Source: Eledone cirrhosa (lineage: Eukaryota). From it: a stretch of 64,000 nucleotides of DNA. The translations under genes were made by a program, and so were the position numbers. Positions 4,320-63,985 of the stretch are shown here, in pieces. Every line of letters starts with the position of its first letter. Within the stretch, counting starts at the first letter, position 1. Location: assembly GCA_964016885.1 (NCBI GenBank), contig OZ024742.1:125550001-125614000 (forward strand), in the 5' to 3' direction. The notes below the pieces were generated by a model that worked only from the letters and a program-made list of their open reading frames with translations, was not told where the DNA came from and searched no databases.

Positions 4320-4324
<5 letters not shown>

Positions 4325-4485
4325 AAAGTGTCAGGACCCCGACGGCTGAGCTCCGGCCATTTCGACAGCTAGATCTGAACAGAGTTCAGGTCCTGACTCT
4401 TTTCATATTACCTACTCTAATACCCTAAGTATCGAGTACTCTGGTGCGTTATGGTCCACCTGGTTCCTTACCACACTTCCTTCGT

Positions 4486-4487
<2 letters not shown>
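4320..4487 (+). mobile_element. Palindromic miniature element (HHR-half family), internally deleted copy
   Basis: Shares the tail TACCCTAAGTATYGAGTAC..GGTGCGTTATGG..CTGGTTCCTTACCACA..CCTTCGTTA with 5 other copies; flanked by (TA)n. Confidence 0.8.
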
Positions 4488-19949: not shown

Positions 19950-20416
19950 AAAAAACATAAATATTATATATATAAAAAAACATATATATTGTATATATAA
20001 AAATAAAAAGTGGGGGAATACGACAAATAATAAATAAATAATTAGAAAAGGGTATAAATGTCTATAGCTGATTAAGAGCACTCAACAAGTTCCTGGAGCA
20101 AATGATCAATGAAAATAAGCATTAAATCACTGTATGTAATTATGCATATACACACACATATACATATATATACATACACACACACTCACAAACACAACCA
20201 CAGAAATACACACATACATAGATATACGTATATATATATACACACACATAGGAAAAAGTCTGACCCCATGGCAGAGCTCAAGCCGTTTCTGAGGCTATTA
20301 TATATATACACACAAAATGATTATATAAAAATATATATACACGGACAAATATACACACGCCCACACACACACATATTAAATCTATATATACACGCATACA
20401 TACACATATATATACA

Positions 20417-22388: not shown

Positions 22389-22421
<33 letters not shown>

Positions 22422-22423
22422 TG

Positions 22424-22506
<83 letters not shown>

Positions 22507-22546
22507 GATATTAAATAAATGGAAACTATATTTATAAAACCATATT

Positions 22547-22612
22547 TATTTCATTATATATATTTCAGGGATATCATATTAACAATATGTTATGCCTTCT
22601 TCAGACAAAATA
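22547..22612 (-). ncRNA. Type I HHR, PLE-2 left arm
   Basis: Reverse complement of 26744-26809. Confidence 0.75.
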
Positions 22613-23454: not shown

Positions 23455-23514
<60 letters not shown>

Positions 23515-25859: not shown

Positions 25860-25895
<36 letters not shown>

Positions 25896-26743: not shown

Positions 26744-26809
26744 TATTTTGTCTGAAGAAGGCATAACATATTGTTAATATGATATCCCTGAAATATATAT
26801 AATGAAATA
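26744..26809 (+). ncRNA. Type I HHR, PLE-2 pLTR
   Basis: TATTTTGT-CTGAAGA-agg..cct-GAAA-tatata-TA-ATGAAATA; 8-bp stem I with G:U pairs, palindromic stem III, AUA site. Confidence 0.78.
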
Positions 26810-27039
26810 AATATGGTTTTATAAATATAGTTTCCATTTATTTAATATCGTAAATATACTCCAAATACTTGTTGAGTGCTTTTATATCAGTTATAACAAT
26901 TTAAATATAACTTTCCATATATATATATATATGTGTATGTATATGTGTGTATATGTATGTTTATATTTATCTGTATGTATATGTATATGTATATATAATT
27001 GTATTTTATATGCTTCTGTTGTATTTGTGCGTGTGTGTG

Positions 27040-27072
<33 letters not shown>

Positions 27073-27329
27073 GTATATATATGTGTGTAGCTATGCGTGT
27101 ATATATAGATTTAATATGTGTGTGTGTGGGCGTGTGTATATTTGTGCGTGTATATGTATTTTTATATAATGGTTTTGTGTCTATATATATAATAGCCTCA
27201 GAAACGGCTTGAGCTGTGCCTTGGGGTCAGACTTTTTCCTATGTGTGTGTATATATATACGTATATGTATGTATGTGTATGTATGTGTGCGTGTATTTTT
27301 GTGGTTATGTTTGTGTGTGTGTATGTATA

Positions 27330-27377
<48 letters not shown>

Positions 27378-27518
27378 GAAGAGATATTATCTCGAAAATT
27401 AAGGACATTTAAATAAATTCAAGGTGAAAGACGAATTCACATCAATATCTTTCACTATTGCATTCTTCTTTCTATGTCCATACCTGCATTGTCTTGGCCT
27501 TATTACACATATTCAAAC

Positions 27519-27608
<90 letters not shown>

Positions 27609-27823
27609 GTATGTGTGTGTGTATATGCATAATTACATACAGTGGTTTAATGCTTATTTTCATTGATCATTTGCTCCAGGAACTTGTTGAGTGCTCTAAA
27701 TCAGCTATAAACATTTATACCCTTTTCTAATTATTTGTTTATTATTTGTCGTATTCTCAACTTTTTATTTTTATAGATAGAATATTTATGTTTTTTTATA
27801 TAAATAATATTTATGTTTTTTCT

Positions 27824-27858
<35 letters not shown>

Positions 27859-28042
27859 ATGTATGCATATGTATGTGTATGTGTATATGTGTGTGTAGGT
27901 ATGTGTATGTATATGTATATATATTTTAGAGTTAAACAAGGTTCATATGAATACATCTAAGAATGAGTTTTACACACATACATGTGTGTGTTTGTATTTG
28001 TATGTATGTGTTTGTGATATGTATGTATGGATATGAATGTAT

Positions 28043-28110
<68 letters not shown>

Positions 28111-28525
28111 ATATGTGTGTGGGTGTGTATATATATGTGTATGCGTATGTTATTGTATATGTAATTGTATATGTATGTGGTTGTATGAGAGTGTATGTAT
28201 GTATTTATTTTTACGTATGTATGTGTACGTGCAATTGTGTGTATTCCTTACCACGTGTGTTTGTTCATTTATCTGTTGCCTGTATCGCTGTCAACATTAT
28301 AATAATTTTTATATTCATTTTTATTCTTATGTGACGGTATTTTTATTATTATATTTTTTCTTATAATTATTTGTGTGTGAGTATGTAGGAGTGTGTAGAT
28401 ATTTCTATATTTGTGCATGCGTATGTATGCGTGTATATATGTGTGTATGTATGTGTATGTATGTACGTGTGTATATATGTATGATTGTGTGTATGTATGT
28501 ATGTACGTGTATATATATGTGTATG

Positions 28526-28557
<32 letters not shown>

Positions 28558-29138
28558 TGTATGTATGTATGTATATGTGTATATATATGTATGTGTGTGT
28601 ATGTATGTATATATATGTTTGTATATACAAATATATATGCATGTAAATGTGTGTGTGTGTGTGTATGCATGTTTGTGTATTTGTATGTAGGTGTATGTAT
28701 GGATATGTTGATAATTATGTGTGTATGTATGTGTATATGTATGTGTATGTATATATATATACACATATGTATGTGTGTGTGTATATGCGTGTGAGTATGT
28801 ATGTGTGTATGTGTATATATATATATATGTGTATGTATATAATTGTGTGTGTGTGTGTGTGTGTGTGTGCATGTGTGTTTATTTTTCCTTTCCTTCTTCC
28901 TTTTTCAGCCTGACTTTCATATAGATTATATTTTTGTTTTTAAAATCCAATGCCAATAAATACACCAGGATTTTCTCATTCTGATGATTGAAAGCAAAAT
29001 TTGTTTGCTTTTAAGAAACCAGTGGTAAATGAAATAATTGACTTATGTTGTTTATTTAATAACTATTAAGCTCTGTTACCTACATAGAGTACTCTTTTTT
29101 CCTGGACCTTTCCTACGGAATTACTTCATTTACACACA

Positions 29139-30523: not shown

Positions 30524-30859
<336 letters not shown>

Positions 30860-32280
30860 TTCAAAAGTAACCAATCTTAAAGATGGAGATGGAGATAGGA
30901 GAGGAGAAGAGAGATTGGTGAATTAGTTAGAAGCCAAAGCGTAAAGGCATGTGTTCAATGTGATGTGCAATATGCAGTGGAAGGCAGCTTGGTGGCTGGG
31001 TTAATGCAGAGGTTAGGTGCACAGAGCTGGAAATATTCATTAGTTAAGCAAAACACGAATTTCACAAGGAAGACATTATTAAAAGATTGTCAACATAGTT
31101 AACCTTGGCGGTCCGTTTACAATTGTTTCGCTACTCCATCTAATGTTTCTGGATCAAATGATTATAGATCATTATTGACCTGGTTCAGTTGAAGATAATT
31201 AACTTAGGTACAATTAGAGCAAATCATTGGAACTTCAAAAGGAATATAAATTAAAATAAAGAAAGAATGTTACATGAATGTAATGTTCCATATATTGGTA
31301 TTTCACTATGGTGTCCTGGGTATATCTATCGTCTGATATAGTCGAGCAGTATTCTTCTGTCGAGGCTGCATTGTGTGAGATCTTCCTATGGGTAACAAGA
31401 TGGCCGCCAATGGACATATTTACCTTAATAATTAGAGGGTGGTTTCAGGGGAAGAAACTCCTCGAGAAATTAGAAATTGCGGGTCGTTTATTGTTAAGAA
31501 GTGCTAATTTTTTTAATTGAGAGACAATGTAAGGGAGGTAACTTATAATTATCTAAGTTAGCTATAACTATTTAACTTATTACCTATAAGTAAAAATGAG
31601 GCTAGGTGACTATGTTGGGTCAAATATTCTGTTGGCGAAGGAATTAGCCCTTCGATGTTGACAGCTAATAGTTACCTCCATTCTATCGTTAATCGGTAGA
31701 GGCCGTGATAGAGTTATGTAATATGCTTCGGTAAGACAGAGGTCACAAGTGTTTCTTCGTCCATTGAACGGTTGGGCCCTAGTCAAGATATCCCATGTTA
31801 GTGAGTGTTCAATGTTGGTTAATTTAAGGTTTTTAATGAGCCTAGCTAGAGATGTCGAACATCTGTTGTTAGGGTCTCGGAAGGAAAAAGAGTGCGCGTT
31901 TTAGCGTAGCTTAAATAGGTTAGATGTAGAGCCAATATAGGAGCTGGTATTCGAAGCAGTTTTAACTGTGCACCTATAAACTATATTGGGTGTCAGGCAA
32001 TGTCCATTTAGTGGGCATGCATTAGGGTAACGGCAGTTGCAGTTACTTCTGCGGTTAGTGAGAGTAGGGTTGTTTAAACTATGCGGTTGGTCCGTGCTAG
32101 AATGATTAGATGGGGGAGGTGTGCTACTGGAGTAAGTATTGGTGTAGTGGCGTGGTGTATTTGATGGGCGGTGGTTGTACCGCGGTGTGGGATTTATGTC
32201 TTAGTTTATGATGGTTACTGAATGCGTTGTGGGTAGCTAGGTTAGGTGTTGTGGAGAATGAGATTGTAATGTTGTTTTTA
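30860..32280 (-). mobile_element. Decayed PLE 3' fragment (GIY-YIG plus 3' UTR)
   Basis: Minus strand CNCRYPNACPLNGHCL..IVY.C and SYIGSTS at ~31920-32045; HHR 3' half GAAA-caattg-TA at 31118-31129. Confidence 0.8.
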
Positions 32281-32289
32281 TTAAACAAC

Positions 32290-32714
32290 ATTCAAATTAG
32301 AAGTTAGATTCTCAGCAAGTAAATGACAAGTAATTATGTTTTGAAACAATGAGCGAGTTTGAAATTAGAAATATAAGCTTTCACCGTATTTTTGACTAAA
32401 GAAATTTTTAGCCTGATAGTGGGGTTTAGAACTCTCAGAGAAATGGAAAAAGATGAGTATTGACGTACATGGGAGTCGAACCCACATCTTTGGTTACCCA
32501 GACCACTGTGCTACCATTACACCAACACATCACCCATCTCCTTCCATTCAAATTAGAAGCTACATTCTTAGCAAGTAAATGACAAGTAAGTATGTTTTGA
32601 AAGAGTGAGCGAGTTTGAAATTAGAAATAGAAGCTTTCACCGTTTTTTGTCAAAAATACGGTGAAAGCTTATATTTCTAATTTCAAACTCACTCACTGTT
32701 TCAAAACCTACTTA

Positions 32715-40313: not shown

Positions 40314-40413
<100 letters not shown>

Positions 40414-40559
40414 ATACTTTGGGAGGGTCATGTTGCCAATAAGAAACACACGCACCAGATGCTTTCACTTCAATTTATTATAATAAATTTAGAAATTTAG
40501 GAATTTAGAAATTCCCCGTTGGTTGGTTGGTTCCACAACCAGATGGTTGTTTATATATT

Positions 40560-40602
40560 GTCAAAGTTCTTTCGTCACACATTCTGTGACCTCTTCAGTG
40601 AC
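40560..40602 (-). ncRNA. Type I HHR, PLE-3 pLTR
   Basis: Minus strand GTCA-CTGAAGA-g-gtcac..gtgac-GAAA-gaac-TT-TGAC. Confidence 0.72.
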
Positions 40603-40809
40603 TGGGGATTCTTTTCTTTGTTTTTGTGCCTCTCCTTTGTTCTGTCCTACGCCATCTTGTTTCTGTGTGTGTGTTGTGTGCTCAGTCTGCGCATGCGCCA
40701 CATCCGGGTGTCTGTGTGTCTTTATATTCGTTTATTTATTTGTTTATTTACATGTTACTGGTTGTTTGTTTGTTCTATGTGCGTGTGTGTTTTCATTTTG
40801 TCCTTAATT

Positions 40810-42442
40810 CTAAGTTGTGATGTTGCTGTTCCACTCATGTTTTCTATTTAATTTTGGTTGTAATTCTTTTATGTTTATTGCCTCTGTGATTTGTCTAAAC
40901 ATTGCGTCTTTTCTGTGTGTAGATTCTATTTTTATTTCTATGTTCTCTAATTTACCCTTATGTTCTATTTTAGCATGTTGGTAGAGTAGAGATGATTCTT
41001 TACTATCTTGAAGGTCTCGCCAGTGTTCATTTATCCGTTCCCCTACACTACGAGCTGTCTCACCTATGTACACTATATTTTTATCTCTACATTGTCCTTC
41101 AGTACATCTTATGCTATATACTACATTTCTAGTTTTACAGTTAATATGGGGGCTTAATTTACAGGTTATACATTTCTTATGTATACAGGGGGGTCTTTGA
41201 AAGGGGTATGTCTTGCTAATAAGTGCTTTTATGGAGGTACCTGGCCTTTCTACTATCTTAATATTGAGTTCATATTTATCTAGGGCCCTTCTAAATTTGT
41301 AAGCTAATTCACATCTAGGGGTTGTATCGATGAACATTACACTCTGGTATTTATTGCTATCATACCATGAGTTTATTCTATTAGCCTTATTCCTAGTTCT
41401 TTCTATTCTATTCCAAAATGTGCTCCTATACAAGGGGCAGGTCCCATTTGTGTCATTATTTACCATTTTTTCCCATTTGGTTCTGGCTCCTCTATACACT
41501 CTGATTTTATCTCTCTGATTGTAACCAGAGAACTGCATACGGTGGATGAAGTGTTGTACGTGTCTCTTTAGTTCTTCGGGTTGCACATGCGGGACACGTT
41601 TCTCATCACCCGTACCAAATCCGCAATCATGTATGTTGATTTTGGTATGGTCCGAAACAGCTGAGTTTCGGTGGATCAAATATTTGGAAGTCATGGGTTT
41701 GGCATAATGGGAATGGAGGATTTGTTTTTTGTTATTAATGGTATCTAACCAGAGCTCTGTGTCTAGTACAGGTAATCGATGGTTGGGGTGTTTGCTTGGG
41801 TAGTCTATAGTAACTCTAATACTCTGGTGGATGGAGTTAGCTATTTGCTGGATGCTTTCCATTGTGTTTTTCTCTAATTCCAGACTGTTCTCTAGTGGGG
41901 GAGTTTTAACTACGATGTCTATATCATCAACGTAGCGGGAGTACATTATCAGGGTTAAGGGGTCTTCTAATTGTTCTTTAAGTTTAAGTTTAAGTCTACT
42001 GTCCCACCATACCATGAATAAGTTAGCTATGTCGCCTGCAATGCTAACACCAATGGCTGCTCCCTCCTCTTGGGCATATGTTTTTCCATTAAATTTGAAC
42101 ATATGTTCCTTAAGGGTTAATTGTATGCTGGCCCCCACCGCATGTGCAATCATTTTCTTTAGTTCATCGTTGTTTTCGGGGGTTCGTATGGCACTGGTCC
42201 ACCCGTTCCATCTATCTGTGTGGGTTTTCTTGGCCATTGAGGTAATGGTAGGTGGTCTGCCTCTTGCTGGTCTTGTAGGACACAGGTTGCTAAGGTCATA
42301 TGTGTCTAGATAAGTATTACTATAGGTAAGTTTAAGTAGGAGTCCCAGCTCACTGGTATCAATCCCACGGAACTCAACATTGTTCTCACTGATCATTTCT
42401 ACGCATTTCTCCACAGCAAAATCCACGTCAATAGATGGATAC
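40810..42442 (-). CDS. PLE-3 reverse transcriptase, thumb and GIY-YIG (5' broken by inversion)
   Basis: YPSID, F.FNGKTYAQEEGAAIG, YSRYVDD, LPVLD, C..KCITC, VVYSIRC, YIGETAR, ERINEH, EAI. Confidence 0.88.
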
Positions 42443-42459
42443 TGGGACGTAATGGAGAT

Positions 42460-42960
42460 AATGGAGACATAGCATGCTTTCCAACAGACAAGTCTGGCAG
42501 AATGTTGGTTGACAGTCTGCCAAACTACATCCAGGCAATGCAACCCCACATCAGTAACACAAGAGAAGTAACACCGCAAGAGCATGAGGATAGAGAAAAC
42601 GCCCTCAATGCCCATATGGTGATGTGGACAAATATAATGCAGCCCAACAAAAGGACTGGCAACAACTTCCAGGCCTGGAACATGACGTGCCAGCGTTGTA
42701 TGGGCTTCGAAAAGACCATAAAATTGGCAGTGACCCTGTCACGGGACCACGGACACGGCCAGTCTGTGGAGCTAACATTGCTAGTAACTACAGACTGTCC
42801 TACCTCCTCTCCCTGATCATACGCCCCATCATTGAAATGTCCCCAGATGTATGTGACAGCACGGAGGACCTCCTCAGCAGAATCGGCGAGAGTAACCGAT
42901 CTAGGGACCTAACAAACTGCATAATAGGTAGTATGGATGTTGTGTCCTTGTATCCATCTA
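42460..42960 (+). pseudogene. PLE-3 N-terminal RT segment, inverted
   Basis: PALYGLRKDHK, RPV, IIGSMDVVSLYPS, which continues in the minus ORF at YPSID. Confidence 0.85.
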
Positions 42961-43602
42961 GAGCCATACGGACCCCCTTGTATAGGAGTAAATTTTGGAA
43001 TAGAATAGAAAGAACTAGGAATAAGGCCAATAGAATAAACTCATGGTATGATAGCAATAAATACCAGAGTGTAATGTTCATCGATACAACCCCTAGAGGT
43101 GAATTAGCTTACAAATTTAGAAGGGCCCTAGATAAACATAAACTTAATATTAAGATAGTAGAAAGACCAGGTACCTCCATAAAAAACACTTATTAGCAAG
43201 ACATACCCTTTTCAAAGACCCTCCTGTATACATAAGAAATGTATAACCTGTAAATTAAACCCCCACATTAACTGTAAAACTAAAAATGTAGTATATAGCA
43301 TAAGATGTACTGAAGGACAATGTAGAGATAAAAATATAGTGTACATAGGTGAGACAGCTCGTAGTGTAGGGGAACGGATAAATGAACACTGGCGAGACCT
43401 TCAAGATAGTAAAGAATCATCTGTACTCTACCAACATGCTAAAATAGAACATAAGGGTAAATTAGAGAACATAGAAATAAAAATAGAATCTACACACAGA
43501 AAAGCCGCAATGTTTAGACAAATCACAGAGGCAATAAACATAAAAGAATTACAACCAAAATTAAATAGAAAACATGAGTGGAACAGCAACATCACAACTT
43601 AG
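42960..43602 (+). pseudogene. PLE-3 duplicated GIY-YIG tail
   Basis: YIGETARSVGERINEH, near-identical to the minus copy. Confidence 0.85.
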
Positions 43603-43809
43603 AATTAAGGACAAAATGAAAACACACACGCACATAGAACAAACAAACAACCAGTAACATGTAAATAAACAAATAAATAAACGAATATAAAGACACACAG
43701 ACACCCGGATGTGGCGCATGCGCAGACTGAGCACACAACACACACACAGAAACAAGATGGCGTAGGACAGAACAAAGGAGAGGCACAAAAACAAAGAAAA
43801 GAATCCCCA

Positions 43810-43852
43810 GTCATTGAAGAAGTCACAGAATATGTGACGAAAGAACTTTGAC
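43810..43852 (+). ncRNA. Type I HHR, PLE-3 inverted copy (C3U)
   Basis: GTCA-TTGAAGA-a-gtcac..gtgac-GAAA-gaac-TT-TGAC. Confidence 0.6.
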
Positions 43853-44075
43853 AATATATAAACAACCATCTGGTTGTGGAACCAACCAACCAACGGGAAA
43901 TTTATAAATTCCTAAATTTATAAATATATTATAATAAATTGAAGTGAAAGCAACTGGTGCGTATGTTTCTTATTGTCAACATGACCCTCCCAAAGTATAA
44001 CAATATCGGTTTCAACACACATTTTCAGATAAAGAATCTTGCTAAATAAATTCAGAAACGAAATATATATATATA

Positions 44076-46257
44076 ATTATAATAAAATAACAGGAGGCTG
44101 GACTTGTGTAAATCCTTGAAAGGTTCATTATACTATGATCATTTCAATGACCGGGTTCCGTATGAATCCGGTGATATGATCAAGTATTCGAAATATAATG
44201 AATGAATGTAACAGATAATATCCATGGGGCTGAAAATCATAGACCCGAGGACGACCAACCATCTAGCATCTTCCACTTTAGCCGGTCGCCCTCAAGTGCT
44301 GGCCATTCGGTCTACTTAAGACTATTTAGTGAGGGGGCGAAAGCTTATAATGTGCTACTAACCTCCGGTCAAAGAGAAAAAAAGACAGAAAGAAAGAAGA
44401 AAAGTCAGCGTTAATGTCATGCTACAACCAGGCTAGGAATTGCCGCGAAAAAAGTTATTCTAAAGAACCTATATCTTAACAGAGGTATATAATATAACAG
44501 AGGTATATATAGTGGGCGTCTGCATGGTATAATGTGTGAACAGGAAATTGGAACGTTAAATTTTTGTTTAGATTTATACGAAGAAATAAAAAAAAAATTT
44601 AATTAAAGATTAAAATTATAAAATTAAAAAATTTAGAAAATTAAAAATTATGGTTTGGGTTGCGAGATTTAGTTAAAGAATTAATGTTTTTATCTTCGTA
44701 TTCTGCTTTTATTTATATATGTATTTTTGTTTTTTTGCCTACTGTTCCTTTTATTTAGGTTTTTACTCGCTTTACTCTCATTAAGTACTTATCATTGTAC
44801 TCATTAGCACACAACACTAGAATATCTCCCCCTGAGAACCATAATACTTATAACCCGGACTATCTGGGGACCTAGATATAGTCTATTTGCGCTTTTGATC
44901 GGGTTTTATAATTGATTACACGCGATGATCCGACTGGTGTGGTGGTTTTCCTGGCTGCGCGCCCGGCGCCCTGGTGCATAAGCCTCCCTTGAGTGCTTGG
45001 AAAAATAAATTTCCCCTTCTTTCTGTAAATGAAATTACTCGGAGCGGCTGCTTCGCCCCGGGGCCCGCCGCGCCATCGTTTTTGACCGCCATATAGTACC
45101 TTTAAATTCTAGGCCTAATCATAGCTATTAGCTGTATCATGCCTCCCTCTACTGGCTCTTAAACAAATCCCCCTCCTGTGTAAATTAATAGTACTCTTTG
45201 GTATAACGATGGCCTAACGACGATGGCTGACTTCCCACTAGCACACCCGAAGCCTAGAACAGTTACATTCCTCGAGTGATCGGAAAAATTGATTTCCATA
45301 TCTTTCGCTAGACGATTTCACTCGGAATGGCTGACACGTGGTAAGAATGGGCTGGCCGGAGTCTGCAGTCGTCGCGTGCTGTTTGACTGCTAAACAAGGA
45401 CTTAATCTTTACTCTATATCCCAACCTGAAAACTTATCGAGGATCTCTATAATACACTTAAATTTTTTTCATAAAAGACTCTCTCTGGAAATTCTTTAAC
45501 TAAATCTCGCAACCCAAACCATAAATTTTTTTTAAACTGTTTAATTTTTAATTTTATAATTTTTTTAATTTTATAATATTAATCTTTAATTTAATTTTTT
45601 TTTTAAATTTCATCCTATAAATCTAAACAAAAATTTAACGTTCCAATTTTCTGTTCACACATTATACCATGCAGACGCCCACAATATATACCTCAATTAT
45701 AATATATACCTCTGTTAAGATATAGGTTCTTTAGAATAATTTTTTCGCGACAATTCCTAGCCTGATTGTAGAATGACATTAACGCTGACTTTTATTATTT
45801 CTTTCTGTCTTTTTTTTTCTCTTTGACCGGGAGGTTAGTAGCACATTATAAGCTTTCGCCCCCTCACCAGACAGCCTTAAGTAGACCGAATGGCCAGCAC
45901 TTGAGGGCGACCGGCTAAAGTGGAAGATGCTAGATAGTCGGTCGTCCTCGGGTCTATGATTTTCAGCCCCATAGATTTTATCTGTTACATTCATTTATTA
46001 TATTTCGAATACCTGATGATATCACCGGATTCCTACGGAACCCGGTCATTGAAATGATCATAGTATAATAAACCTTTCAAGGATTTACACAAGTCCAGCC
46101 TCCTGTTATTTTATCATAATATTTAACTGCGTACTCGCACCACCAACTACACAAACGAAGACGGTTGAACCGCTTTAAGTTGAGTACTCTCCATATTATT
46201 ACATCAAGATTGAGCATACGGAATGACCAGCTCTATCCAGTGGTGAACCTTCAAACC

Positions 46258-49863: not shown

Positions 49864-49908
<45 letters not shown>

Positions 49909-49912
<4 letters not shown>

Positions 49913-50145
49913 AACGAGTAGGACCCCGACGGGTGAGCTCAAGCCGTTTCGACGGCTAATTCTGGACTAAAAACTTTAGTCCAGAAATAGCCATCGAAAC
50001 GGCTTGAGCTCTGCCGTCTAGCCGTCGAAACGGCTTGAGCTCAGCCGTCGGGGTCCTACTCGTTCCTATTACCCACTCTACTACCCTAAGTATTGAGTAC
50101 TTTGGTGCGTTATGGCCCATCTGGTTCCTTACCACATTTCCTTCG

Positions 50146-50148
<3 letters not shown>
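49909..50148 (+). mobile_element. Palindromic miniature element (HHR-half family), copy A
   Basis: TAGGAACGAGTAGGACCCC..GGGGTCCTACTCGTTCCTA arms plus family tail. Confidence 0.85.
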
Positions 50149-50212
<64 letters not shown>

Positions 50213-50214
<2 letters not shown>

Positions 50215-51936
50215 AGAGTATTACCAACAAACCTTTGGATTGCCCATGGGATCAAGCCTATCAGGTGTGCAAGCGATCTCTTACATGGACAACCTCGAAC
50301 GCAAGGCACTCAACGCCTGCCACCCCAACGCTGTAGCCTTTTTCTCAAGGTACGTGGACGATATCCTCATCCTCACATCTTCCCAAGACACGGCAAACAG
50401 AATCTATGAGACGTTCAACAACACGGACGAGAACATTGACTTCAGTGTTGAACACCCCAACGAAGACGGGTCACTTGCCCTCCTCGACTTCCGAATCAAC
50501 ATCACGGAACAGGGAAGGATCCACTGTAACTTCTACCGAAAGGCAGCCTGCAGGGACCTGTTCGTTCATTATAAGTCCGCCCTCCCTAACACTGCCAAAA
50601 GAGGATACATCACGAACGAGATCGCGCAAATCAAAAACAGATGCAGTGATCCCGCGAGGGGTGTCATTCATACCAAGCGATTCCTCGAGGTGCTGGAGAC
50701 GAACGGGTACCCTACCTCGATCACAGACAGAATAGGAGACACCAGACACAAGAGACAGAGAGGCACCCAAGGCAAGTGCTTCCTTAAAATGCCACACCTG
50801 GGCGAGAATACCACCAACGCTATCCGCAAGGCTATACGGAGGGAGGGCCTCGACATCCACCTGGCCCACTCGGGCCCCTCCCTGCGAAGATGCCTCTCCA
50901 GGAAACCCGGGAAATCTACTGACGCATGCTCCCTCAGAGACTGCCCGATACGCCTTGCGAACTGTTGCCTACGCACGTCGTGTATAAGATAGAATGTGAC
51001 AGGTACAACCAATACTACATAGGTAGCACAATCCGACCTTTGCAGATCCAGATCAAGGAACACACTAAAACCAGGGACTCGTCTTTCCGGAAACACATAG
51101 ACAAATGCGGAAACCAAGACGGAAGGCCCATTGTCACAATTCTAGCGACTGAAAGAAACGTCGGCACGTTACGTATCAAGGAAGCGCTTTTTATCAAACG
51201 CCTGCAACCGCAAATAAACAACCGATCAGAGAGAAGCGAAATGAGATGGCTGGTTTAAGTTAAAAAACGATGCAGCAACACACAACACACGCACACACAC
51301 ACACAAACGAGACAACTACACACACACACACACACGCGCGCGCGCACACACACACAGTAGCATTCCACCATACGAACATACTACACTGCCAATACAGAGG
51401 AACAAGGCAACGACACACGCACACACACACACACACACACACATACAAGCGAGGCAACAACACACGCACACACACACACAGTAACATTTAACAAACAGGC
51501 AGAGAATGGACTGACAGCTAGCGTCACCCCACTCCCTCATTCGGCCGCTGACCTCTGCCCGACCGACCCCATTTCACGCGCACACGCGCTCTGCAGAATA
51601 CCTCAGATATTCAAAACAACAAACAGCGAAGGAAGCGTTTCGCACCTGTCCGACAGACAACCTTTTCCCCCACCCCGGAAAAAACCCCCAGTTGATGGAT
51701 GTGAATCCGAAATATATAGGGACTATTAAATCTCTCCCAAGGTAACTCTCTCTTGTGTTGTTATTTTTATTTTTATTTTATCATTTATACTCTTCCCTTC
51801 ATTCTTCTACACATCTTACACATCTTATACACACCACGCATCTCAACGTACACCCACTTACATCTCTCTCTCTCCACCACCGGATCTTATTACCCGGAGA
51901 TTTACCCATTTGCATTGTCGAGGCTTCCAAACGGCT

Positions 51937-51940
<4 letters not shown>
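50213..51940 (+). mobile_element. PLE-4, 5' truncated (RT, thumb, GIY-YIG; frameshift near 50980)
   Basis: YYQQTFGLPMGSSLS, FSRYVDD, LALLD, FYRK, NGYP, VVYKIEC..YYIGST; decayed HHR at 51685-51722. Confidence 0.9.
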
Positions 51941-51980: not shown

Positions 51981-51984
<4 letters not shown>

Positions 51985-52174
51985 AGAAAGTATGACCTCG
52001 ACGGCAGAGCTCAAGCTATTTCTGGACTAAAAACCTTAGTCCAGAAATAGCCGTCGAAACGGCTTGAGCTCAGCCGTCGGGGTCCTACTCGTTCCTATTA
52101 CCCACTCTACTACCCTAAGTATTGAGTACTTTGGTGCGTTATGGCCCATCTGGTTCCTTACCACATTTCCTTCG

Positions 52175-52177
<3 letters not shown>
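51981..52177 (+). mobile_element. Chimeric miniature element (left arm of copy B, right arm of copy A)
   Basis: Left arm matches 54022, right arm and tail match 50030-50148. Confidence 0.85.
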
Positions 52178-52237: not shown

Positions 52238-52239
<2 letters not shown>

Positions 52240-53439
52240 AGAGTATTACCAACAAACCTTTGGATTGCCCATGGGATCAAGCCTATCAGGTGTGCAAGCG
52301 ATCTCTTACATGGACAACCTCGAACGCAAGGCACTCAACGCCTGCCACCCCAACGCTGTAGCCTTTTTCTCAAGGTACGTGGACGATATCCTCATCCTCA
52401 CATCTTCCCAAGACACGGCAAACAGAATCTATGAGACGTTCAACAACACGGACGAGAACATTGACTTCAGTGTTGAACACCCCAACGAAGACGGGTCACT
52501 TGCCCTCCTCGACTTCCGAATCAACATCACGGAACAGGGAAGGATCCACTGTAACTTCTACCGAAAGGCAGCCTGCAGGGACCTGTTCGTTCATTATAAG
52601 TCCGCCCTCCCTAACACTGCCAAAAGAGGATACATCACGAACGAGATCGCGCAAATCAAAAACAGATGCAGTGATCCCGCGAGGGGTGTCATTCATACCA
52701 AGCGATTCCTCGAGGTGCTGGAGACGAACGGGTACCCTACCTCGATCACAGACAGAATAGGAGACACCAGACACAAGAGACAGAGAGGCACCCAAGGCAA
52801 GTGCTTCCTTAAAATGCCACACCTGGGCGAGAATACCACCAACGCTATCCGCAAGGCTATACGGAGGGAGGGCCTCGACATCCACCTGGCCCACTCGGGC
52901 CCCTCCCTGCGAAGATGCCTCTCCAGGAAACCCGGGAAATCTACTGACGCATGCTCCCTCAGAGACTGCCCGATACGCCTTGCGAACTGTTGCCTACGCA
53001 CGTCGTGTATAAGATAGAATGTGACAGGTACAACCAATACTACATAGGTAGCACAATCCGACCTTTGCAGATCCAGATCAAGGAACACACTAAAACCAGG
53101 GACTCGTCTTTCCGGAAACACATAGACAAATGCGGAAACCAAGACGGAAGGCCCATTGTCACAATTCTAGCGACTGAAAGAAACGTCGGCACGTTACGTA
53201 TCAAGGAAGCGCTTTTTATCAAACGCCTGCAACCGCAAATAAACAACCGATCAGAGAGAAGCGAAATGAGATGGCTGGTTTAAGTTAAAAAACGATGCAG
53301 CAACACACAACACACGCACACACACACACAAACGAGACAACTACACACACACACACACACGCGCGCGCGCACACACACACAGTAGCATTCCACCATACGA
53401 ACATACTACACTGCCAATACAGAGGAACAAGGCAACGAC

Positions 53440-53473
<34 letters not shown>

Positions 53474-53961
53474 GCGAGGCAACAACACACGCACACACAC
53501 ACACAGTAACATTTAACAAACAGGCAGAGAATGGACTGACAGCTAGCGTCACCCCACTCCCTCATTCGGCCGCTGACCTCTGCCCGACCGACCCCATTTC
53601 ACGCGCACACGCGCTCTGCAGAATACCTCAGATATTCAAAACAACAAACAGCGAAGGAAGCGTTTCGCACCTGTCCGACAGACAACCTTTTCCCCCACCC
53701 CGGAAAAAACCCCCAGTTGATGGATGTGAATCCGAAATATATAGGGACTATTAAATCTCTCCCAAGGTAACTCTCTCTTGTGTTGTTATTTTTATTTTTA
53801 TTTTATCATTTATACTCTTCCCTTCATTCTTCTACACATCTTACACATCTTATACACACCACGCATCTCAACGTACACCCACTTACATCTCTCTCTCTCC
53901 ACCACCGGATCTTATTACCCGGAGATTTACCCATTTGCATTGTCGAGGCTTCCAAACGGCT

Positions 53962-53965
<4 letters not shown>
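52238..53965 (+). mobile_element. PLE-4 tandem duplicate (offset 2025 bp)
   Basis: ORF translations identical to those in 50213-51940. Confidence 0.9.
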
Positions 53966-54021: not shown

Positions 54022-54025
<4 letters not shown>

Positions 54026-54215
54026 AGAAAGTATGACCTCGACGGCAGAGCTCAAGCTATTTCTGGACTAAAAACCTTAGTCCAGAAATAGCCGTCGAAA
54101 CGGCTTGAGCTCGGCCGTCGAGGTCATACTTTCTCCTATGACCCACTCAACTACCCTAAGTATTGAGTACCCTGGTGCGTTATGGTCCATCTGGTTCCTT
54201 ACCACAACTCCTCCG

Positions 54216-54218
<3 letters not shown>
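54022..54218 (+). mobile_element. Palindromic miniature element, copy B
   Basis: TAGGAGAAAGTATGACCTC..GAGGTCATACTTTCTCCTA arms plus family tail. Confidence 0.85.
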
Positions 54219-54254: not shown

Positions 54255-54741
54255 TATATATATTAGAATTGGAGCTCTGAAATAGCAATATATATATGGA
54301 TGTATATATAATGTATTTTGCAATACACTTTATGCTTAATTAAAAGTATTTTGAAGACCGTATGCTATTGTTTTAGAGTAGTGACAAATTCACTTACTTT
54401 AATCTCAGCAAACAGGGGAGATAAGCCGACAATGCCTTGTTTCGCTTTTGTTGAAACTTATCAAGGCTAACTACCCCTCCTGTCTACTGAGATTACTGAT
54501 GTTATATTCTTAAAGAATTCTAGTAAATAATCAGGAACTGATTATACAGAGCGATTGTTGGTCAGGCAGAAATTAAAAATTAGAATTGGAGCTCTGAAAT
54601 AGCAATATATATATGGATGTATATATAATGTATTTTGCAATACACTTTATGCTTAATTAAAAGCATTTTGAAGACCGTATGCTATTGATTTAGAGTAGTG
54701 ACAAATTCACTTACTTTAATCTCAGCAAACAGGGGAGATAA

Positions 54742-54784
54742 GCCGACAAGGCCTTGTTTCGCTTTTGTTGAAGCTTATCAAGGC
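54742..54784 (-). ncRNA. Type I HHR with U3:A8 core (also 54425-54467 and 55059-55101)
   Basis: Minus strand GCC-TTGATAA-gctt-caacaa-aagc-GAAA-c-aaggcctt-GTC-GGC. Confidence 0.8.
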
Positions 54785-55409
54785 TAACTACCCCTCCTGT
54801 CTAATGAGATTACTGATGTTATATTCTTAAAGAATTCTAGTAAATAATCAGGAACTGATTATACAGAACGATTGTTGGTCAGGCAGAAATTAAAAATTAG
54901 AATTGGAGCTCTGAAATAGCAATATATATATGGATGTATATATAATGTATTTTGCAATACACTTTATGCTTAATTAAAAGCATTTTGAAGACCGTATGCT
55001 ATTGATTTAGAGTAGTGACAAATTCACTTACTTTAATCTCAGCAAACAGGGGAGATAAACCGACAAGGCCTTGTTTCGCTTTTGTTGAAGCTTATCAAGG
55101 CTAACTACCCATCCTGTCTACTGAGATTACTGATGTTATATTCTTATAGAATTCTAGTAAATAATCAGGAACTGATTATACAGAGCGATTGTTGGTCAGG
55201 CAGAAATTAAAAATTAGAATTGGAGCTGAGATTAAAGTTATATATACATTATATATACATCCATATATATATTGCTATTTCAGAGCTCCAATTCTAATTT
55301 TTAATTTCTGCCTGACCAACAATCGCTCTGTATAATCAGTTCCTTATTATTTACTAGAATTCTATAAGAATATAACATCAGTAATCTCAGTAGACAGGAG
55401 GGGTAGTTA

Positions 55410-55452
55410 GCCTTGATAAACTTCAACAAAAGCGAAACAAGGCCTTGTCGGC
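55410..55452 (+). ncRNA. Type I HHR with U3:A8 core, inverted unit
   Basis: GCC-TTGATAA-actt-caacaa-aagc-GAAA-caaggccttg-TC-GGC. Confidence 0.72.
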
Positions 55453-55578
55453 TTATCTCCCCTGTTTGCTGAGATTAAAGTAAGTGAATTTGTCACTACT
55501 CTAAAACAATAGCATACGGTCTTCAAAATGCTTTTAATTAAGCATAAAGTGTATTGCAAAATACATTATATATACATC

Positions 55579-55669
<91 letters not shown>

Positions 55670-56425: not shown

Positions 56426-59014
56426 TATTGAAGTTTCCGTTGAAAACAGAAAAAGTCATAGGAGTGAAGAGTGCTCTATGCAAGTGCCAGAGCAAAATTT
56501 AATGTATAAAAAACAATACAATATAATTACCTCATTACCAGAGGTTTCCCTAATAAGGCGAATACGAAAGAAACGTCTTCATTCGTTCGTCGGACGAGGC
56601 AATATAAAACATAGCTAAATATTTGGAAAGTCTCCTCAAGAAATGCAAAAAAAATTATATAAATATAGATAATACAATATACATATAAAATATATAAAAA
56701 TGTTTAAAGAAATATAGTTAGGTGTGTGTATATGTATGTATATACACTCACAGATGTACATATGTATGTATGTACAAATGTGTGTGTATAGTGAAAATGT
56801 GTGAGTAAATATATATATGAGGGCAAGTATATCTGTGTATCTGTAACTACAGACACAGATGAAATGAGTGTCCGGTTGACAGGTATACAGAAAAACAGGG
56901 TATTAGATACATTATAAGAATATGAAGGCACGCGTATAAACACACACACACGCGCGTACACTTATATGCGGAAGAAAAAGAGGTAGGGGAGTGTAATAGT
57001 AAAAAGAAAGTATCATTCTCGATATATTGATAAAAATGGAACAATAATTTAGAAAGAATTGCAAAGTAAGGAAAAGAAAACAAATAAGGTATACGCGTAC
57101 ATACACACATATATCTATAAGAAACGTATATCTATAAAAATATATATATACACGCAAAACGTGCAGACGAATGCGTATGCAAGTATACATACACACACAG
57201 GATGCACATATATATATACATACACCTCGCCGCATGTATATCTAATCACGCGTACGTACGCGACTGTATACACACACACACATACACACACATAAATATA
57301 TACATACATATATACATACGCACACTTACACATCCATACATTCAGTACGTACACACACACACACACACACACACATACATACATACACTCACGCACGTTG
57401 ACCCGCTTACATGCACACACATAAAAATGAGAATGTAAAAAAAACATAGATGTAAAATACACAGATATAAAAACACACATACATACACATATATATATAC
57501 ACGCACGCGCGCGCACATACGGAGGCGTTCGTGTACATATACAGAAAGTGTACACACATAAAGACGCTCAGACACATAGATACAGGGTGTAAAAACAGCC
57601 TTGTGAATAAGTGAGTACAAATATAAAAATAAAAATATAAAATTCGCTGCGAAATAACAGAGAATATCTGGAGTGGAAAACGCAGGTGACCTGTGTAATC
57701 AGGTAGTGAAGAAAATAGGGAAGTAAAAAGTGGAAAGTCAAGATATTAGGTAAGTGAATCGGAGAATAAGGGGGGGGGGGGTTAGTGGTGGATGTGAAGT
57801 AAATATAAAAATAAAAATTAAAATTTAAATTTAAATTTAAATTTAAATTTAAATTTAAATTTAAATGAAATTAATAATAAGGTTAAAAATGAAAGTAAAT
57901 CAGAAAAGGTAGTCTTAAAGAGAATAATAAGAGCTTATGGAGGATATGTATCTGAAAGTGTGTTAAGTTTATATGAGCTGGAAAGCAGGTGTGATTTCAT
58001 GTGTAGACAACTGGTGAAGATTTCTCTCTTTGTGTTTAGGCAGGTCTTTGTTGATTTAAGGTTTTGCAAAATCGAATATTTTTCATTTATGCAGAGCGTG
58101 CATTTTCTTGTTCCTCTTGCATATTCTTTAGATTGGTTCAAAATTGACCAATCTAATTTATATTGGATAGCTTGGTCTTTCAAATCCCATATTCTGCTAG
58201 CCAGAGCTGTTGTAAATCTTTTTTCTGGATGTCGAAAGGATGCGACATGTGAGTAATAACGCGTTTTGAATTTGTTTTGCGTCATACCCACATATCGTTC
58301 ACTAGTGGCTGGTTAGTTGTTGCTGATGGTAGTCACTTTAGCCGCATATACAATGGCTTTGGTGTTGCATTTACCTTGTAATGGGCATTGACCTTGATTC
58401 TACAGGAGCAATTTTGATGTTCTCTAGGTGATTTTTTGTTGATGGTATAGGATTTAATAGGGGGACCGCAGGAGTAGCTAATTTTGACACAGTTTCTATT
58501 AAAGATCTTATAGTATCTATATGTTCTAGGGAAATGTTTATCTAAGAGCTCTAGGAATTGTTTGCCTACATTAGTTTTAACTGCTAGAGAGTAGGGGGGT
58601 ATGAACCAGATTATTTTTCTTTTCCTATTATGTTTAATAGAGTTAGTGTAGTTGGGTATGTATTTAATCGGTTCGCTAAAACCGCTATTTTGGGGGGCTT
58701 TATTATAGTAGGGGGATGCCTTATTGAAAATAGCTTCTGAGGAAGAGAGGGTGGAGATCCTACAGCTAATATTAGGGATAAGGTTTTTAAAAACTATAGG
58801 AGGATGGCAAGAGCCTTTATTTATATATTTTAAGTTTTCATTAGGTTTATGGTATGGTTTATAAGAAGCAGTAGGCAAATCTAGGTTTATATCTAGGAAA
58901 TTTACATTGGAAAGGTTAGTGTCAACAGTAATTTGGTTTTTATTAAGTCTTTCCTTAATCTATCTAAGTTATGGCCTATGGTGGTATGGGAAACTATTAG
59001 ACCATCGTCGCGAT

Positions 59015-59436: not shown

Positions 59437-59822
59437 TATTAGTAAAAGGAATTCCAACGTTGTCTGATTTACTCGTTTTATTTACAATCCTTTACTTTAA
59501 AATTTATAATGGTATTATAATGAAAGAGTATGATAGAGTATTAAATGTTAAGTGTTAATTGAACATGTACTTCCATGCTTTTGCAATCTTCAGGTTCATA
59601 ATGTGTGGTGACAGTCAAGTTTGCAATTTTCAACAGTTGAAAATTGCACACTTGACTGTCACCACACATTATGAACCTGAAGATTGCGAAAGCATGAAAG
59701 TTCTTGTTCAATTAACACTAAACATTTAATACTCTATCATACTATTTCATTATAATACCATTATAAATTTTAAAGGATTGTAAATAAAACGAGTAAATCA
59801 GACAAAGTTGGAATTCCTCTTA

Positions 59823-60176: not shown

Positions 60177-63160
60177 GGGTACTATTTATAGGTATGTATA
60201 TTTTAAACTTTTTATAGTTATGTATATTTTAAACTATAAACAGGGAAGGTCAGTAATGTATTACTACCTTATTACCAGTAAGATAAATAGCTCAATGTAA
60301 AAACATCAGTTGTTCTACAGAGCAGTTATACAAGAATCAAAGCTATTCACTTACAATTGTTTCATCCAAACCTAGGCTTGGAGTCTTCGGAGCATTTTTC
60401 AATTGACCTCCTATCCAACGGAAGAGACATATATATATATTGATGTACAGTGGAGTGACATATATTATACTATACTATATTTGTAAAGCAATTCAAATTT
60501 AAAATCAAAACTAAAATACATGCGGCAGATAACACAGATAATGCAAGTGATAGTTCGATAATCAGATCTAGTAGATAGTGTATGCGTTAGTCATACATGG
60601 ATCATGCAAGTGTGTCTCATTTATATACGAGTATTGTGTGACAAGGTATTACATGTAATACAAGCACTTTAAGCGGGTAAGCAAGAGTATTATGGTGGTT
60701 GTAGTGGGAGGGTATTTTTTGTATAGATCAAAAAAGTATGTGTGCAGAAAAAGAAAAAGAAAGTTATAGTTTTCGCATCCACCACATATGTTACGATGAA
60801 TTCGTATTGAATGTTTGATGTAGTAAATGATTATAACGTATTGAGGCTCAGTGATATTTAATCCATATTTATAGAATAGGTTCTTTCTGCTGCGAGAATT
60901 TACAGTGGTTTATTATCCGGAAGTGGGTGTGTAATTTAGGGGAGTTAATGCGTAAGGGGAGGTAACTAGCTGATTCTCATAACTAAATTCATTGTTCTAA
61001 CATACATTATATGGTGCCTCAATTGAGTCCCTTATTTAAAAGGTTATATATTTATATTTAATGTTAAATACAGTCTCCTCTATCATAATGTATTAAAGGT
61101 ATCTATAGGAAGTTGATTACTCCTTATTATATAGCGCTATATTGAATTTCCCACGCAGTGCTATATCTTTATATCAAAATTCACTGTAAATACAGTCTAC
61201 TCTCAAAACATATCAAAGGACCATTAGAATTGTGTCTACATAACCCTTGGTAAGCTATGGAGCAGCGTACGGCTGTTTGCATGATAATATCAAATACATC
61301 TCTTGGGTAAACAAATACATCCCTCATTTACAATGTCATTAATCTATCCATTAAGTTATACATGCATATATAATTCATATATAATTCATTGCACCACCCT
61401 ACATATAAGTTAGACAGATCCCTTATGTTAATAAATTAATCCTATATATATCTGATGTTATTACTCTATACAGATACATATATAATTCACTGCCGTATCT
61501 AGTATTTAAAGTTTATATAGACTGTATTATATTTCTATCCCTATATAATTATAAGTAATTAAAAGTAATTATATTAAAAGTTGGTGTTTATGGGGATATT
61601 TCTAGGGTATAAAGTTATAAATAGATATAATGATTTGTGTCGAGGAAAGGGTGGATCAGAGGCTGTCGTGTAGTGGTGGAAGGCAAGCCCTTGAGGTGTG
61701 GTGTTAGAAGCGGTGATGGGTTCAAGTCTGACATTGTTATATACTAGGTTTAAAGCTTTGGAAGGAGTGTCGGGAGCGGTGCTGGCACGACGCAGACACT
61801 TCTGATTTTTTATTAAGGAGGTTAAGGTTCGAAAAGATTATAGTATGGGTCTCTAGTAGACAGAGGTTACAGAATTTATTAGGTGGTTTGTACGATGCTG
61901 CCTTACCTATCACTTCCCATTGAAGTGTATAGGATCTATTTCTAGTTTTCAGATAGTGTATGTAGCTAGATAGTGAAGTGGAGTTGGCTAGACGGTGTTT
62001 TTTGAAAGAATTGTGATGTGAGTTGTATTTCGTTTTGAAGCAGTTCGAAGTAGAGCCTATATAGGTTTCAGAAGAGTTGCTAGTTCTGACCGTGCATGAG
62101 TAGATGATGTCCTTGATTAAGCAGTTTTTACCTAAAGGGCAGGTTCTATTAGATCTACAGTTACATTTATTTTGGATGTTAACCTGTCGGTTATTATGTT
62201 GTGTAGAAGTCTGGTTGCTAGGTATTGCATTATGACTATGAAGGTTGTCGCTCCTAATGCTATTGATTTCATTAGTGTTATTACTATATTACTATTGATA
62301 TCAGGGTTTGTAGTTATTACGTTGTTTTGAAAGTTTACCCCCTGCTGTGCTTTAGTTTGTTGAAAGTAAGTATTAATCTTTTTTTATTGCTACTAGCTAT
62401 GTGGTATGCTATGTTAGGCGTGGTAGAGTAGGAGATTTTAATGGTGCTTTTATTTATAAGACTATGGTACTTGTGGCCAGATGGGAAGTTTTTATCCAGG
62501 ATTGAGAAGAAAGCCTTGGGTAGGTAGAGATGTTTAGATTGAAAGGGGAGTTGAAAAATGTATTAGTTCTTCTATTTTGTTTTTTTTATATCTGTTGAGG
62601 TGTTTCCGTTTATGGTATTTTGGTGTCTTCTCTGGTGCGAGTTACGTTTGTTGCTACCCTTCGTATTAGTGTGTGTTTGGTTATTACTCTTATTACTATT
62701 TTTCATCATGGACATATTGTGAGAAATAATGTTGTAACTATGTGTTTTTATAGGTAGGAACTCAATCTCATTATTATGGCCTGATCTAGCTAATGCCTGA
62801 TTATAGTATTGTGAGTTTTTGCTAAATATGGTTTCGTCATAAGATAGATTAGAGATTCTATTGGATATTCCTTTAGAGATAGAGTTTAATATTGATCTAG
62901 GGTGGTTAGACTTGGTATCTACATAAATTAGTTTTTCGTTAGGTTTATGGAATGGTGTATATATTTTAGAGTCTAGGTAAAGGGTAGCATCAAGGAAGTT
63001 AACGTTTTTAGTGTTTTTGTCTATGGTGATACTTAGGTTATAGTTTTTGAAAGTTTTATGTAATAGTGTCCTAGTTCTTTCTATATTAAGCCTAGGTTTG
63101 GATGAAACAATTGTAAGTGAATAAATGCTTTGAACATAGCTTTGATTCTTGTGAATTCTA
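60170..63160 (-). mobile_element. PLE-6 (Naiad-like), decayed, with short inverted pLTR piece at its 5' end
   Basis: Minus strand NVNFLD (~63000), SNHP, CNCR..TCPLGKNCL, TYIGSTSNCFKTKYNSHH, CNLC, SCQHR; 63088-63152 is inverted relative to 60330-60379. Confidence 0.85.
60348..60394 (-). ncRNA. Type I HHR variant (CCGAAGA core)
   Basis: Minus strand TGCT-CCGAAGA-c-tccaagc-ctag-gtttgga-t-GAAA-caattg-TA-AGTG. Confidence 0.68.
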
Positions 63161-63184
63161 TATATATATATATATATATATTTA

Positions 63185-63410
63185 TTTAGTTATTAAAATA
63201 ACAGATTAAAGTTTAAGAAAAGAATCGCTGCTTTCACCCTTAACTGGATTTTCAGAAGATCCCGTAAAGGGTGAGAGCAGCGATTCTCTGCTTAAACTTT
63301 AATCTGTTATTTTTATAAATATTTGCTCTACGGTTCTTATATATTTGATATATATTTATCCTTATCGAGCCCTCTTTGGATTTTAGTCTTCAAATTTATT
63401 ATTATTACTA
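63185..63410 (+). mobile_element. Short fold-back pLTR element with decayed HHR
   Basis: 63196-63241 is inverted relative to 63267-63314; CAGAAGA-t-ccc-gtaaa-ggg-t-GA(G/A)A; homolog at 18200. Confidence 0.6.

Positions 63411-63646: not shown

Positions 63647-63985
<339 letters not shown>

What the first reader, a model, noticed from the sequence alone, without database searches (positions are those of the whole stretch)
49909..50148. MITE-like palindromic family made of a mirrored hammerhead 3' half, with copy-specific arms
Seen in six copies (4320, 30624, 49909, 51981, 54022, 63692) plus fragments at ~20248 and ~27192. The right arm reads long hairpin (gacggcta..tagccgtc)-GAAA-cggct..agccg-TC-ggggtc, i.e. 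HHR stem II, GAAA, stem III and GUC. Where CUGANGA should be there is a mirror image of the 3' half. Outer arms differ between copies yet match within each copy, and the mirror always stops at an internal TA fused to the target (TA)n. Inference: these are not DNA-transposon MITEs but PLE-mobilised retrocopies whose 5' arm is rebuilt by cDNA fold-back at the stem II hairpin.
Basis: partly seen in the sequence, partly recalled or inferred. Interest (0 to 1): 0.75.

Follow-up and report, generated by a model that had tools for sequence, protein, structure and literature searches.

The report
Penelope stubs marking ribozyme cut
These hairpin-shaped repeats are not DNA transposons but tiny head-to-head stubs of the end of a very abundant Penelope-like jumping gene, likely made as two short DNA copies primed from the two sides of one break; they stop at two fixed points that likely mark the start of the element's RNA and the cut made by its hammerhead ribozyme.

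Summary
The repeats are real. Each is the 3' end of a 3.56-kb Penelope-like retroelement (PLE) with Hydra-clade protein motifs; about 29,800 exact arm matches lie in this genome. Long copies carry the missing hammerhead 5' half, with a U3-A8 or C3·A8 core instead of CUGANGA. Inverted copy plus one-sided tail in (TA)n is a published PLE layout. One end has the tail and one lacks it in 96 of 98 short and 23 of 24 long insertions. Arms stop at a promoter-like boundary (75 of 99) or at the predicted ribozyme cut (59 hits versus 0 and 2 at control offsets). Best reading: twin priming on one RNA, run-off to its 5' end, end-joining. No RNA data. This scan noted the same reading before on other DNA of this genome.

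The parts
49867..49910 (.). (TA)22 target tract, left
   Evidence: sequence
49909..49971 (-). Tail-less (N) arm: parent unit positions 3416-3479, from the 5' boundary in hammerhead loop II to the end of stem I
   Evidence: blastn to a real full-length unit (L186), 95% identity
49975..50018 (+). Internal 44-nt piece running from the 5' boundary to the GUC of the predicted cut site, with diagnostic letters of another subfamily than its flanks; likely a template jump onto a cleaved RNA
   Evidence: sequence; similar junctions elsewhere in the genome
50019..50068 (+). Tailed (T) arm: 3' strand of stem II, GAAA, stem III, GUC (predicted cut between 50049 and 50050), 3' strand of stem I, internal TA at 50067-50068
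50069..50148 (+). 79-80 nt tail; in full-length elements it continues without (TA)n into the 5' UTR, with the ORF start 91 nt further on
50147..50211 (.). (TA)n target tract, right
   Evidence: sequence
63692..63809 (+). Copy whose two arms both begin at the predicted ribozyme cut (T side = the last 98 nt of the unit, 3461-3558)
4320..4487 (+). Divergent-subfamily copy: long N arm, T arm starting within about 1-2 nt of the cut site
30624..30823 (-). Copy with both arms ending near the 5' boundary, 8-nt filler
51981..52177 (+). Chimeric copy (left part as 54022, right part as 49909) at the joint of a tandem duplication
54022..54218 (+). Copy with a 9-nt deletion in the N arm
20248..20299 (-). 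Old tail-less arm fragment, mirror partner of 27191-27242 inside a longer inverted repeat
27191..27242 (+). Old tail-less arm fragment (mirror partner of 20248-20299)

Best explanation
Each palindrome is two 5'-truncated copies of the 3' end (pseudo-LTR) of a 3.56-kb Penelope-like retroelement lying head to head in a (TA)n tract, likely written as two separate cDNAs primed from the two ends of one cut. Shown: the parent (RT-like ORF of about 700 aa with a C-terminal GIY-YIG-type region, about 1.2 kb 3' UTR, type I hammerhead fold with a variant core, 79-nt tail); two fixed 3' ends 79 nt apart; one of each per insertion; two pile-ups of 5' ends. Inferred: (1) the enzyme, probably as a dimer, cuts both strands in (TA)n and starts reverse transcription at two internal sites of one RNA, one per DNA end, as shown in vitro for an anole PLE (PMC11167929). 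(2) The RNA starts 140-144 nt upstream of the tail end, inside hammerhead loop II, so initiation near its 5' end gives run-off cDNAs of about 61 and 140 nt that lack the catalytic box. (3) If the RNA has been cut by the ribozyme, the cDNAs are 19 and 98 nt. (4) The two cDNA ends are trimmed and joined with filler or microhomology, which gives each copy its own centre. (5) When the run-off cDNA instead jumps to an RNA 3' end, long and tandem copies result. Odds: identity 0.97, twin priming about 0.75, cut-site footprint about 0.7, promoter reading of the main boundary about 0.6.
For: Parent; tail-to-ORF junction has 817 first-look candidates, 40 scored at 95-100%. Tail rule: 96 of 98 short head-to-head insertions; 23 of 24 long ones with both ends resolved and TA-flanked, out of 46 chains; 28 of 30 cut-site hits. 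Symmetry: of 93 measured, T arm longer by more than 3 nt in 30, N arm in 28 (3 of these misaligned; 2 of the 3 are about equal by eye), within 3 nt in 35. 1,330 genome hits have a full N arm and a shortened T arm. Among 16 tandem-containing insertions the short inverted arm has the tail in 11, lacks it in 4, and 1 has no tail at either end. Five insertions join this arm to the end of another hammerhead-bearing family (L031, L040, L050, L053, L058). Boundary: of 99 position-ordered arms, 75 stop 4-16 nt upstream of the anchor, 8 at 19-29, none from 30 up to the 5' half, and 16 run through. A TATA-like box lies 29-31 nt upstream of an initiator-like motif (motif names recalled). Cut site: 59 hits with both arms at the cut plus one A/T, versus 0 at +3 and 2 at -1; 19 of the first 100 of 1,332 very short copies by my hand count. 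Jumps: 5 of 8 internal joints land at -144, -140, -139, -125, -98; upstream pieces end within 1 nt of the cut in 12 of 28 by script, 10 after removing two mis-scored by point mutations.
Against: No transcript, cap or cleavage data were available. The cap-G test was inconclusive: free G 12, T 31, A 5, C 4. Subfamily share of the cut-site class does not follow the core: about 26 of 59 versus 8 of 99 background for one U3-A8 subfamily, but 4 of 59 versus 23 of 99 for another, and the C3·A8 subfamily still gives 6 of 59 (hand count; the background needs an exact 34-mer). With a full N arm, T-arm starts are broadly spread, only 9 of 30 within 1 nt of the cut. The -1 control pattern was slightly stricter than the test, and CpG decay can mimic a one-letter filler. 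Rfam finds no hammerhead in four parent loci; only 2 of 4 parent folds give the three-way junction as the minimum-energy structure. Pfam gives no hit on the parent ORF. Samples were picked by patterns, not at random; the two-family pairs were found by a pattern that selects them. PMC11167929 found no RNA reads ending at the anole ribozyme cut, and cleavage was not needed in vitro.
Confidence: 0.75

Rival explanations
1. Fold-back (first reader; close to the self-priming idea in PMC3846280): one cDNA folds back and copies itself, and later central deletions vary the centre.
For: Arms share subfamily and 7 rare alleles. Both arms tend to stop at the same site. Central deletions in palindromes are established knowledge (recalled) and could give symmetric arm lengths.
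Against: Two-family pairs. In 11 of 16 tandem insertions the mirror would have to run past the internal N site and stop at T, while in short copies it always stops at N. Junctions with a single non-parent letter at the cut site offer no stem for self-priming. Inverted pieces made of tail only (L141, L211).
Confidence: 0.12
2. Twin priming is right, but the two pile-ups are reverse-transcriptase stalls at RNA structure (apex of stem II, base of stem III) or trimming stops, not RNA 5' ends.
For: The main boundary coincides with the apex of the long stem II, and the cut site lies 1 nt from the base of stem III. Cap-G test inconclusive. Broad spread of T starts in mixed copies.
Against: A stall at stem III should leave the C of GUC in the arm, yet the arms lack it. 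Upstream pieces also END at the same bond (focal copy 49975-50018), which a stall does not predict. Both arms share the same stop far more often than independent stalls would give (rough comparison).
Confidence: 0.2
3. A non-autonomous mini-element (SINE- or retrozyme-like master) that is copied as a whole palindrome.
For: Very high copy number and near-constant length.
Against: Nearly every centre is different. There is a continuum to multi-kb copies with the same ends. Minis lack the putative promoter and the catalytic box.
Confidence: 0.04
4. DNA-transposon MITE with terminal inverted repeats and a TA target duplication.
For: Inverted arms ending in TA.
Against: One-sided tail; arms are the end of an RT-encoding element; lone arms and two-family pairs exist. 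No transposase search was run.
Confidence: 0.01

Closest known systems
Insertion units of endonuclease-bearing Penelope-like elements: pLTR, adjacent inverted 5'-truncated copy, tail at one end (PMC8557442, passages and section 11; PMC3846280, passages)
   Same: Partial tandems, inverted truncated copy, tail on one side only, hammerhead in the pLTR, microsatellite targets
   Different: Tail is 79 nt (30-40 bp in the papers) and lies in the 5' UTR, not over the ORF start. Most insertions are cut down to about 200 bp with fixed 5' stops. The strict one-tail rule is counted here.
Hydra clade of C-terminal EN+ PLEs (PMC8557442 section 11 and supplementary file 1, part 2)
   Same: RWK-like, DKT, CxCX5C, CxxC and CxH motifs; no CCHH; (TA)n targeting; an inverted 5' copy is noted for Penelope-13_HM
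   Different: 3.56 kb against mostly under 3 kb. Hammerhead core U3-A8 or C3·A8 with a long stem II, where all Hydra hammerheads listed in file S2 have CUGA-N-GA and short stems. Not placed in a tree.
PAc (Poseidon of green anole) in vitro (PMC11167929, parts 1-2 of 4 read)
   Same: Two internal RT start sites bounding the tail; both DNA strands cut and extended; predicted dimer; AT-rich targets
   Different: That paper does not assign one site to each DNA end, does not explain inverted copies, and saw no reads at the ribozyme cut.
U3-A8 minimal hammerheads of Schistosoma PLEs (PMC4209133, parts 1-2 of 4 read)
   Same: U3-A8 covariation, palindromic loop III, pairs of motifs on opposite strands 100-700 bp apart
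   Different: Here stem III is 4-6 bp and stem II is about 50 nt long.
L1 twin priming; retroviral strong-stop transfer (recalled; twin priming seen only in a search listing)
   Same: Two primers on one RNA; run-off cDNA that jumps to an RNA 3' end
   Different: Here the second primer uses a fixed site, and both products face outward from a head-to-head join.

Membership tests
EN+ Penelope-like element | Single ORF with RT and C-terminal GIY-YIG endonuclease | tested here: met
   Motifs read in alignment A1; 948 homologues at about 40-56% identity. Pfam gave no hit; all copies seen have stops or frameshifts somewhere.
EN+ Penelope-like element | pLTR from partial tandem, inverted 5'-truncated copy, one-sided tail | tested here: met
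EN+ Penelope-like element | Hammerhead motif in the pLTR | tested here: met
   Variant core, stems I-III; no Rfam hit
Hydra clade | RWK, DKT, CxCX5C, CxxC and CxH motifs; no CCHH | tested here: met
   RWR, DKT, CNC-x5-C, CNLC, CKH
Hydra clade | Insertion in (TA)n | tested here: met
Hydra clade | Canonical hammerhead core | tested here: not met
   UUGANAA or CUGAGAA against CUGANGA in file S2; therefore filed as Hydra-like only
Hydra clade | Generally under 3 kb | tested here: not met
   unit 3,558 bp
Hydra clade | Phylogenetic placement with named Hydra proteins | not tested
   No named reference sequences were fetched
Type I hammerhead ribozyme | Self-cleavage after GUC | not testable with these tools
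   Indirect only:
MITE | Inverted repeats at both termini and a uniform interior | tested here: not met
   One-sided tail, copy-specific centres
MITE | Target-site duplication | not testable with these tools
   Hidden by (TA)n
MITE | Termini shared with a transposase element | tested here: not met
   Termini belong to an RT element; no direct transposase search
Non-LTR retrozyme | Tandem units each with a complete type I hammerhead (10.64898/2026.07.22.740005, part 1 and passages) | tested here: not met
   Minis are head to head and lack the core

The most novel reading that the evidence does not exclude
The stubs are a fossil record of the whole PLE cycle: a promoter inside hammerhead loop II disables the 5' ribozyme, the complete 3' ribozyme cuts in vivo and leaves a 42-45 nt terminal repeat, a dimer primes one start site per DNA end, and the run-off 'strong-stop' cDNA transfers to the cut 3' end as in retroviruses. 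Failed transfers are the minis; repeated transfers are the partial tandems.
Probability: 0.45. Interest if true: 0.75.

Novelty: new member of a known kind. Interest (0 to 1): 0.5.

Why it matters
How PLEs make inverted ends with a one-sided tail, and what their hammerheads do, are stated as open in PMC8557442; PMC11167929 saw no RNA ends at the cut. This family gives thousands of insertions whose end points can be counted, and exact predictions: an RNA start, a cut bond, and cDNAs of 61/140 and 19/98 nt. In practice such stubs are easily mis-annotated as MITEs or microRNA hairpins. The layout itself is known, and this scan has already reported the same reading for this genome, so the added value here is the counts against fold-back and the jump junctions.

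Tried and rejected
Rfam on the window: no hammerhead among the 150 best of 167 matches, only microsatellite and hairpin noise plus one tRNA. Rfam on four parent loci: none. CUGANGA parent search: 48 hits, 30 inspected, none a parent. The PLE next to the focal copy (50213 onward) is not the parent (no significant BLASTP match). Sequencing runs: no RNA holder listed. Three contig sets of one sample cover the arms deeply but no piece spans the tandem duplication, so artefact versus real is open. Cap-G test inconclusive. Link between core type and cut-site share: not found. Hairpins just 3' of both start sites, a lead from earlier notes: the one after the T end is the local minimum-energy fold; the one after the N end can be drawn and its variation sits in the loop, but it is not the minimum-energy fold and no compensatory change was seen. 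Look-up of earlier findings by sequence: nothing. Paper searches listed no paper that describes twin priming, strong-stop products or genomic cut-site footprints for PLEs; I judged most from listings, and the library lacks most subscription journals. The supplements of PMC11167929 held as text had no matching terms; its figures S1-S2 were not seen and may bear on how start sites are used. The bioRxiv supplement was not seen.

Full report
Observation. Each full copy reads (TA)n, arm, variable centre, mirror arm, TA, 79-80 nt tail, (TA)n. The family is large: 29,779 exact matches of a 34-nt arm pattern against 0 for the reversed control. In 30 loci picked by the tail, the centres differ from copy to copy. 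In 49 of 96 short copies that could be compared without gaps, arms differ by 1.55 of 52 nt within a copy and 4.43 between copies; 36 of 49 have the same diagnostic haplotype in both arms against 15% in shuffles; 7 rare alleles are in both arms and 50 in one arm only. Copy 51981 is the exception: it is a chimera at the joint of a 1.7-kb tandem duplication.

The parent. A search for CUGANGA upstream of the arm found 48 hits; none of the 30 read was a parent. But L020 and 16 of 99 position-ordered arms continue upstream into a constant sequence. It completes a type I hammerhead: stem I of 5 bp plus an extension that ends at the internal TA, a core UUGANAA with position 7 free (G, U, A, C), or CUGAGAA in one subfamily, a long stem II, GAAA, stem III with a palindromic loop, and GUC. 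Two of four parents fold into this junction unaided; Rfam does not detect it. U3-A8 cores are described for PLEs (PMC4209133). Further upstream lie about 1.2 kb of 3' UTR and an ORF; downstream of the tail, full-length copies run without (TA)n into a 91-nt leader and the ORF start. The unit is 3,558 bp. The protein has the Hydra-clade motifs of PMC8557442, though Pfam gives no hit, and the hammerhead core and length depart from the Hydra families listed there. The PLE beside the focal copy is unrelated.

Known layout. An inverted 5'-truncated copy, a tail at one end and (TA)n targets are published PLE features. The tail was shown in vitro to lie between two internal RT start sites, with both DNA strands cut and extended by a predicted dimer. 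The minis are the short end of a continuum that reaches full-length tandems.

Fold-back or two primers. One end carries the tail and the other lacks it in 96 of 98 short insertions and 23 of 24 long ones with both ends resolved, of 46 chains found. Arm lengths are symmetric: of 93 measured (3 failed to align), 30 have the tailed arm longer, 28 the tail-less arm (3 misaligned), 35 about equal; 1,330 genome hits have a full tail-less arm and a shortened tailed arm. Later central deletions could give that symmetry, so two further points matter. In 11 of 16 tandem-containing insertions the short inverted arm has the tail while the long arm ends without it; a mirror copied from the long arm would have to pass the internal tail-less site, where short copies always stop. 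And five insertions join this arm head to head with the end of another hammerhead-bearing family (found by a pattern that selects them, so rare). Two primers, each on its own start site, account for all of this.

Two fixed 5' stops. Of 99 arms taken in chromosome order, 75 stop within a 13-nt stretch ending 140-144 nt from the tail end, 8 a little further, none in the next stretch, and 16 run through. The boundary has initiator-like letters and a TATA-like box 29-31 nt upstream (motif names recalled); a cap-derived G could not be shown. The second stop is the predicted cut. Among 1,332 very short copies, 19 of the first 100 have both arms ending there by my hand count. With a single A/T filler there are 59 hits (two are one palindrome read twice) against 0 at +3 and 2 at -1. 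Window copy 63692 is such a copy. Against: with a full tail-less arm, only 9 of 30 tailed arms start within 1 nt of the cut, and subfamily shares do not follow core type.

Jumps. Five of 8 internal joints in long copies link an ORF position near 733-832 to one of these stops or close by. In short direct duplications the upstream piece ends within 1 nt of the cut in 12 of 28 (10 after correction; about 4 expected if flat over the 20 positions seen; two share microhomology). L286 shows a full parent ending at GUC joined to the boundary. The focal copy holds such a piece at 49975-50018. A stall of the enzyme would not make pieces end at the same bond where others begin, which favours real RNA ends.

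Verdict. A new, very abundant Hydra-like PLE family seen through its shortest insertions. The kind is known. The mechanism (twin priming on one RNA, run-off to a start or a ribozyme cut, end-joining or jump) is inferred from DNA only. I reached the parent, the boundary and the cut-site reading before looking at earlier notes; notes on other DNA of this genome report the same and are not independent support. Interest 0.5.

Noticed in passing
window 50213-51939 and 52238-53964: 99.8% identical tandem duplication of a 5'-truncated PLE of another family, with element copies at all three joints; recent unequal exchange between the 49909 and 54022 copies, or an assembly artefact.
   Followed up: partly
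window 18822-28934: Nested inverted repeats: outer pair 18822-20564 / 26938-28934 (85-90%), inner PLE pairs 20636-22365 and 22506-26850 (98%).
   Followed up: no
window 40409-44003, 44076-46120, 54264-55589, 8179-8577, 59495-59775: Further long inverted pairs and palindromes; the first holds a 642-aa PLE ORF at 40813-42738 (-) with weak RT and GIY-YIG Pfam matches.
   Followed up: no
window 57938-58959, 61740-63189, 24353-25379, 21416-22141, 31613-32200: Remains of other Hydra-type PLE families, 32-58% identical to the parent protein.
   Followed up: no
L031, L040, L050, L053, L058 (about 1298-1500): A second hammerhead family with canonical core whose 5' ends also cluster at one initiator-like site, joined head to head with this family.
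   Followed up: partly
L184, L188, L193, L217: Four independent copies break off at ORF-side positions 815-832 before a jump; possibly a recurrent premature RNA 3' end.
   Followed up: no
window 32461-32531 (-): tRNA-like match above Rfam's gathering score.
   Followed up: no
L187 just after each of the two end sites: Small bulged hairpins 4-6 nt past both end sites, possible start signals for the enzyme.
   Followed up: partly
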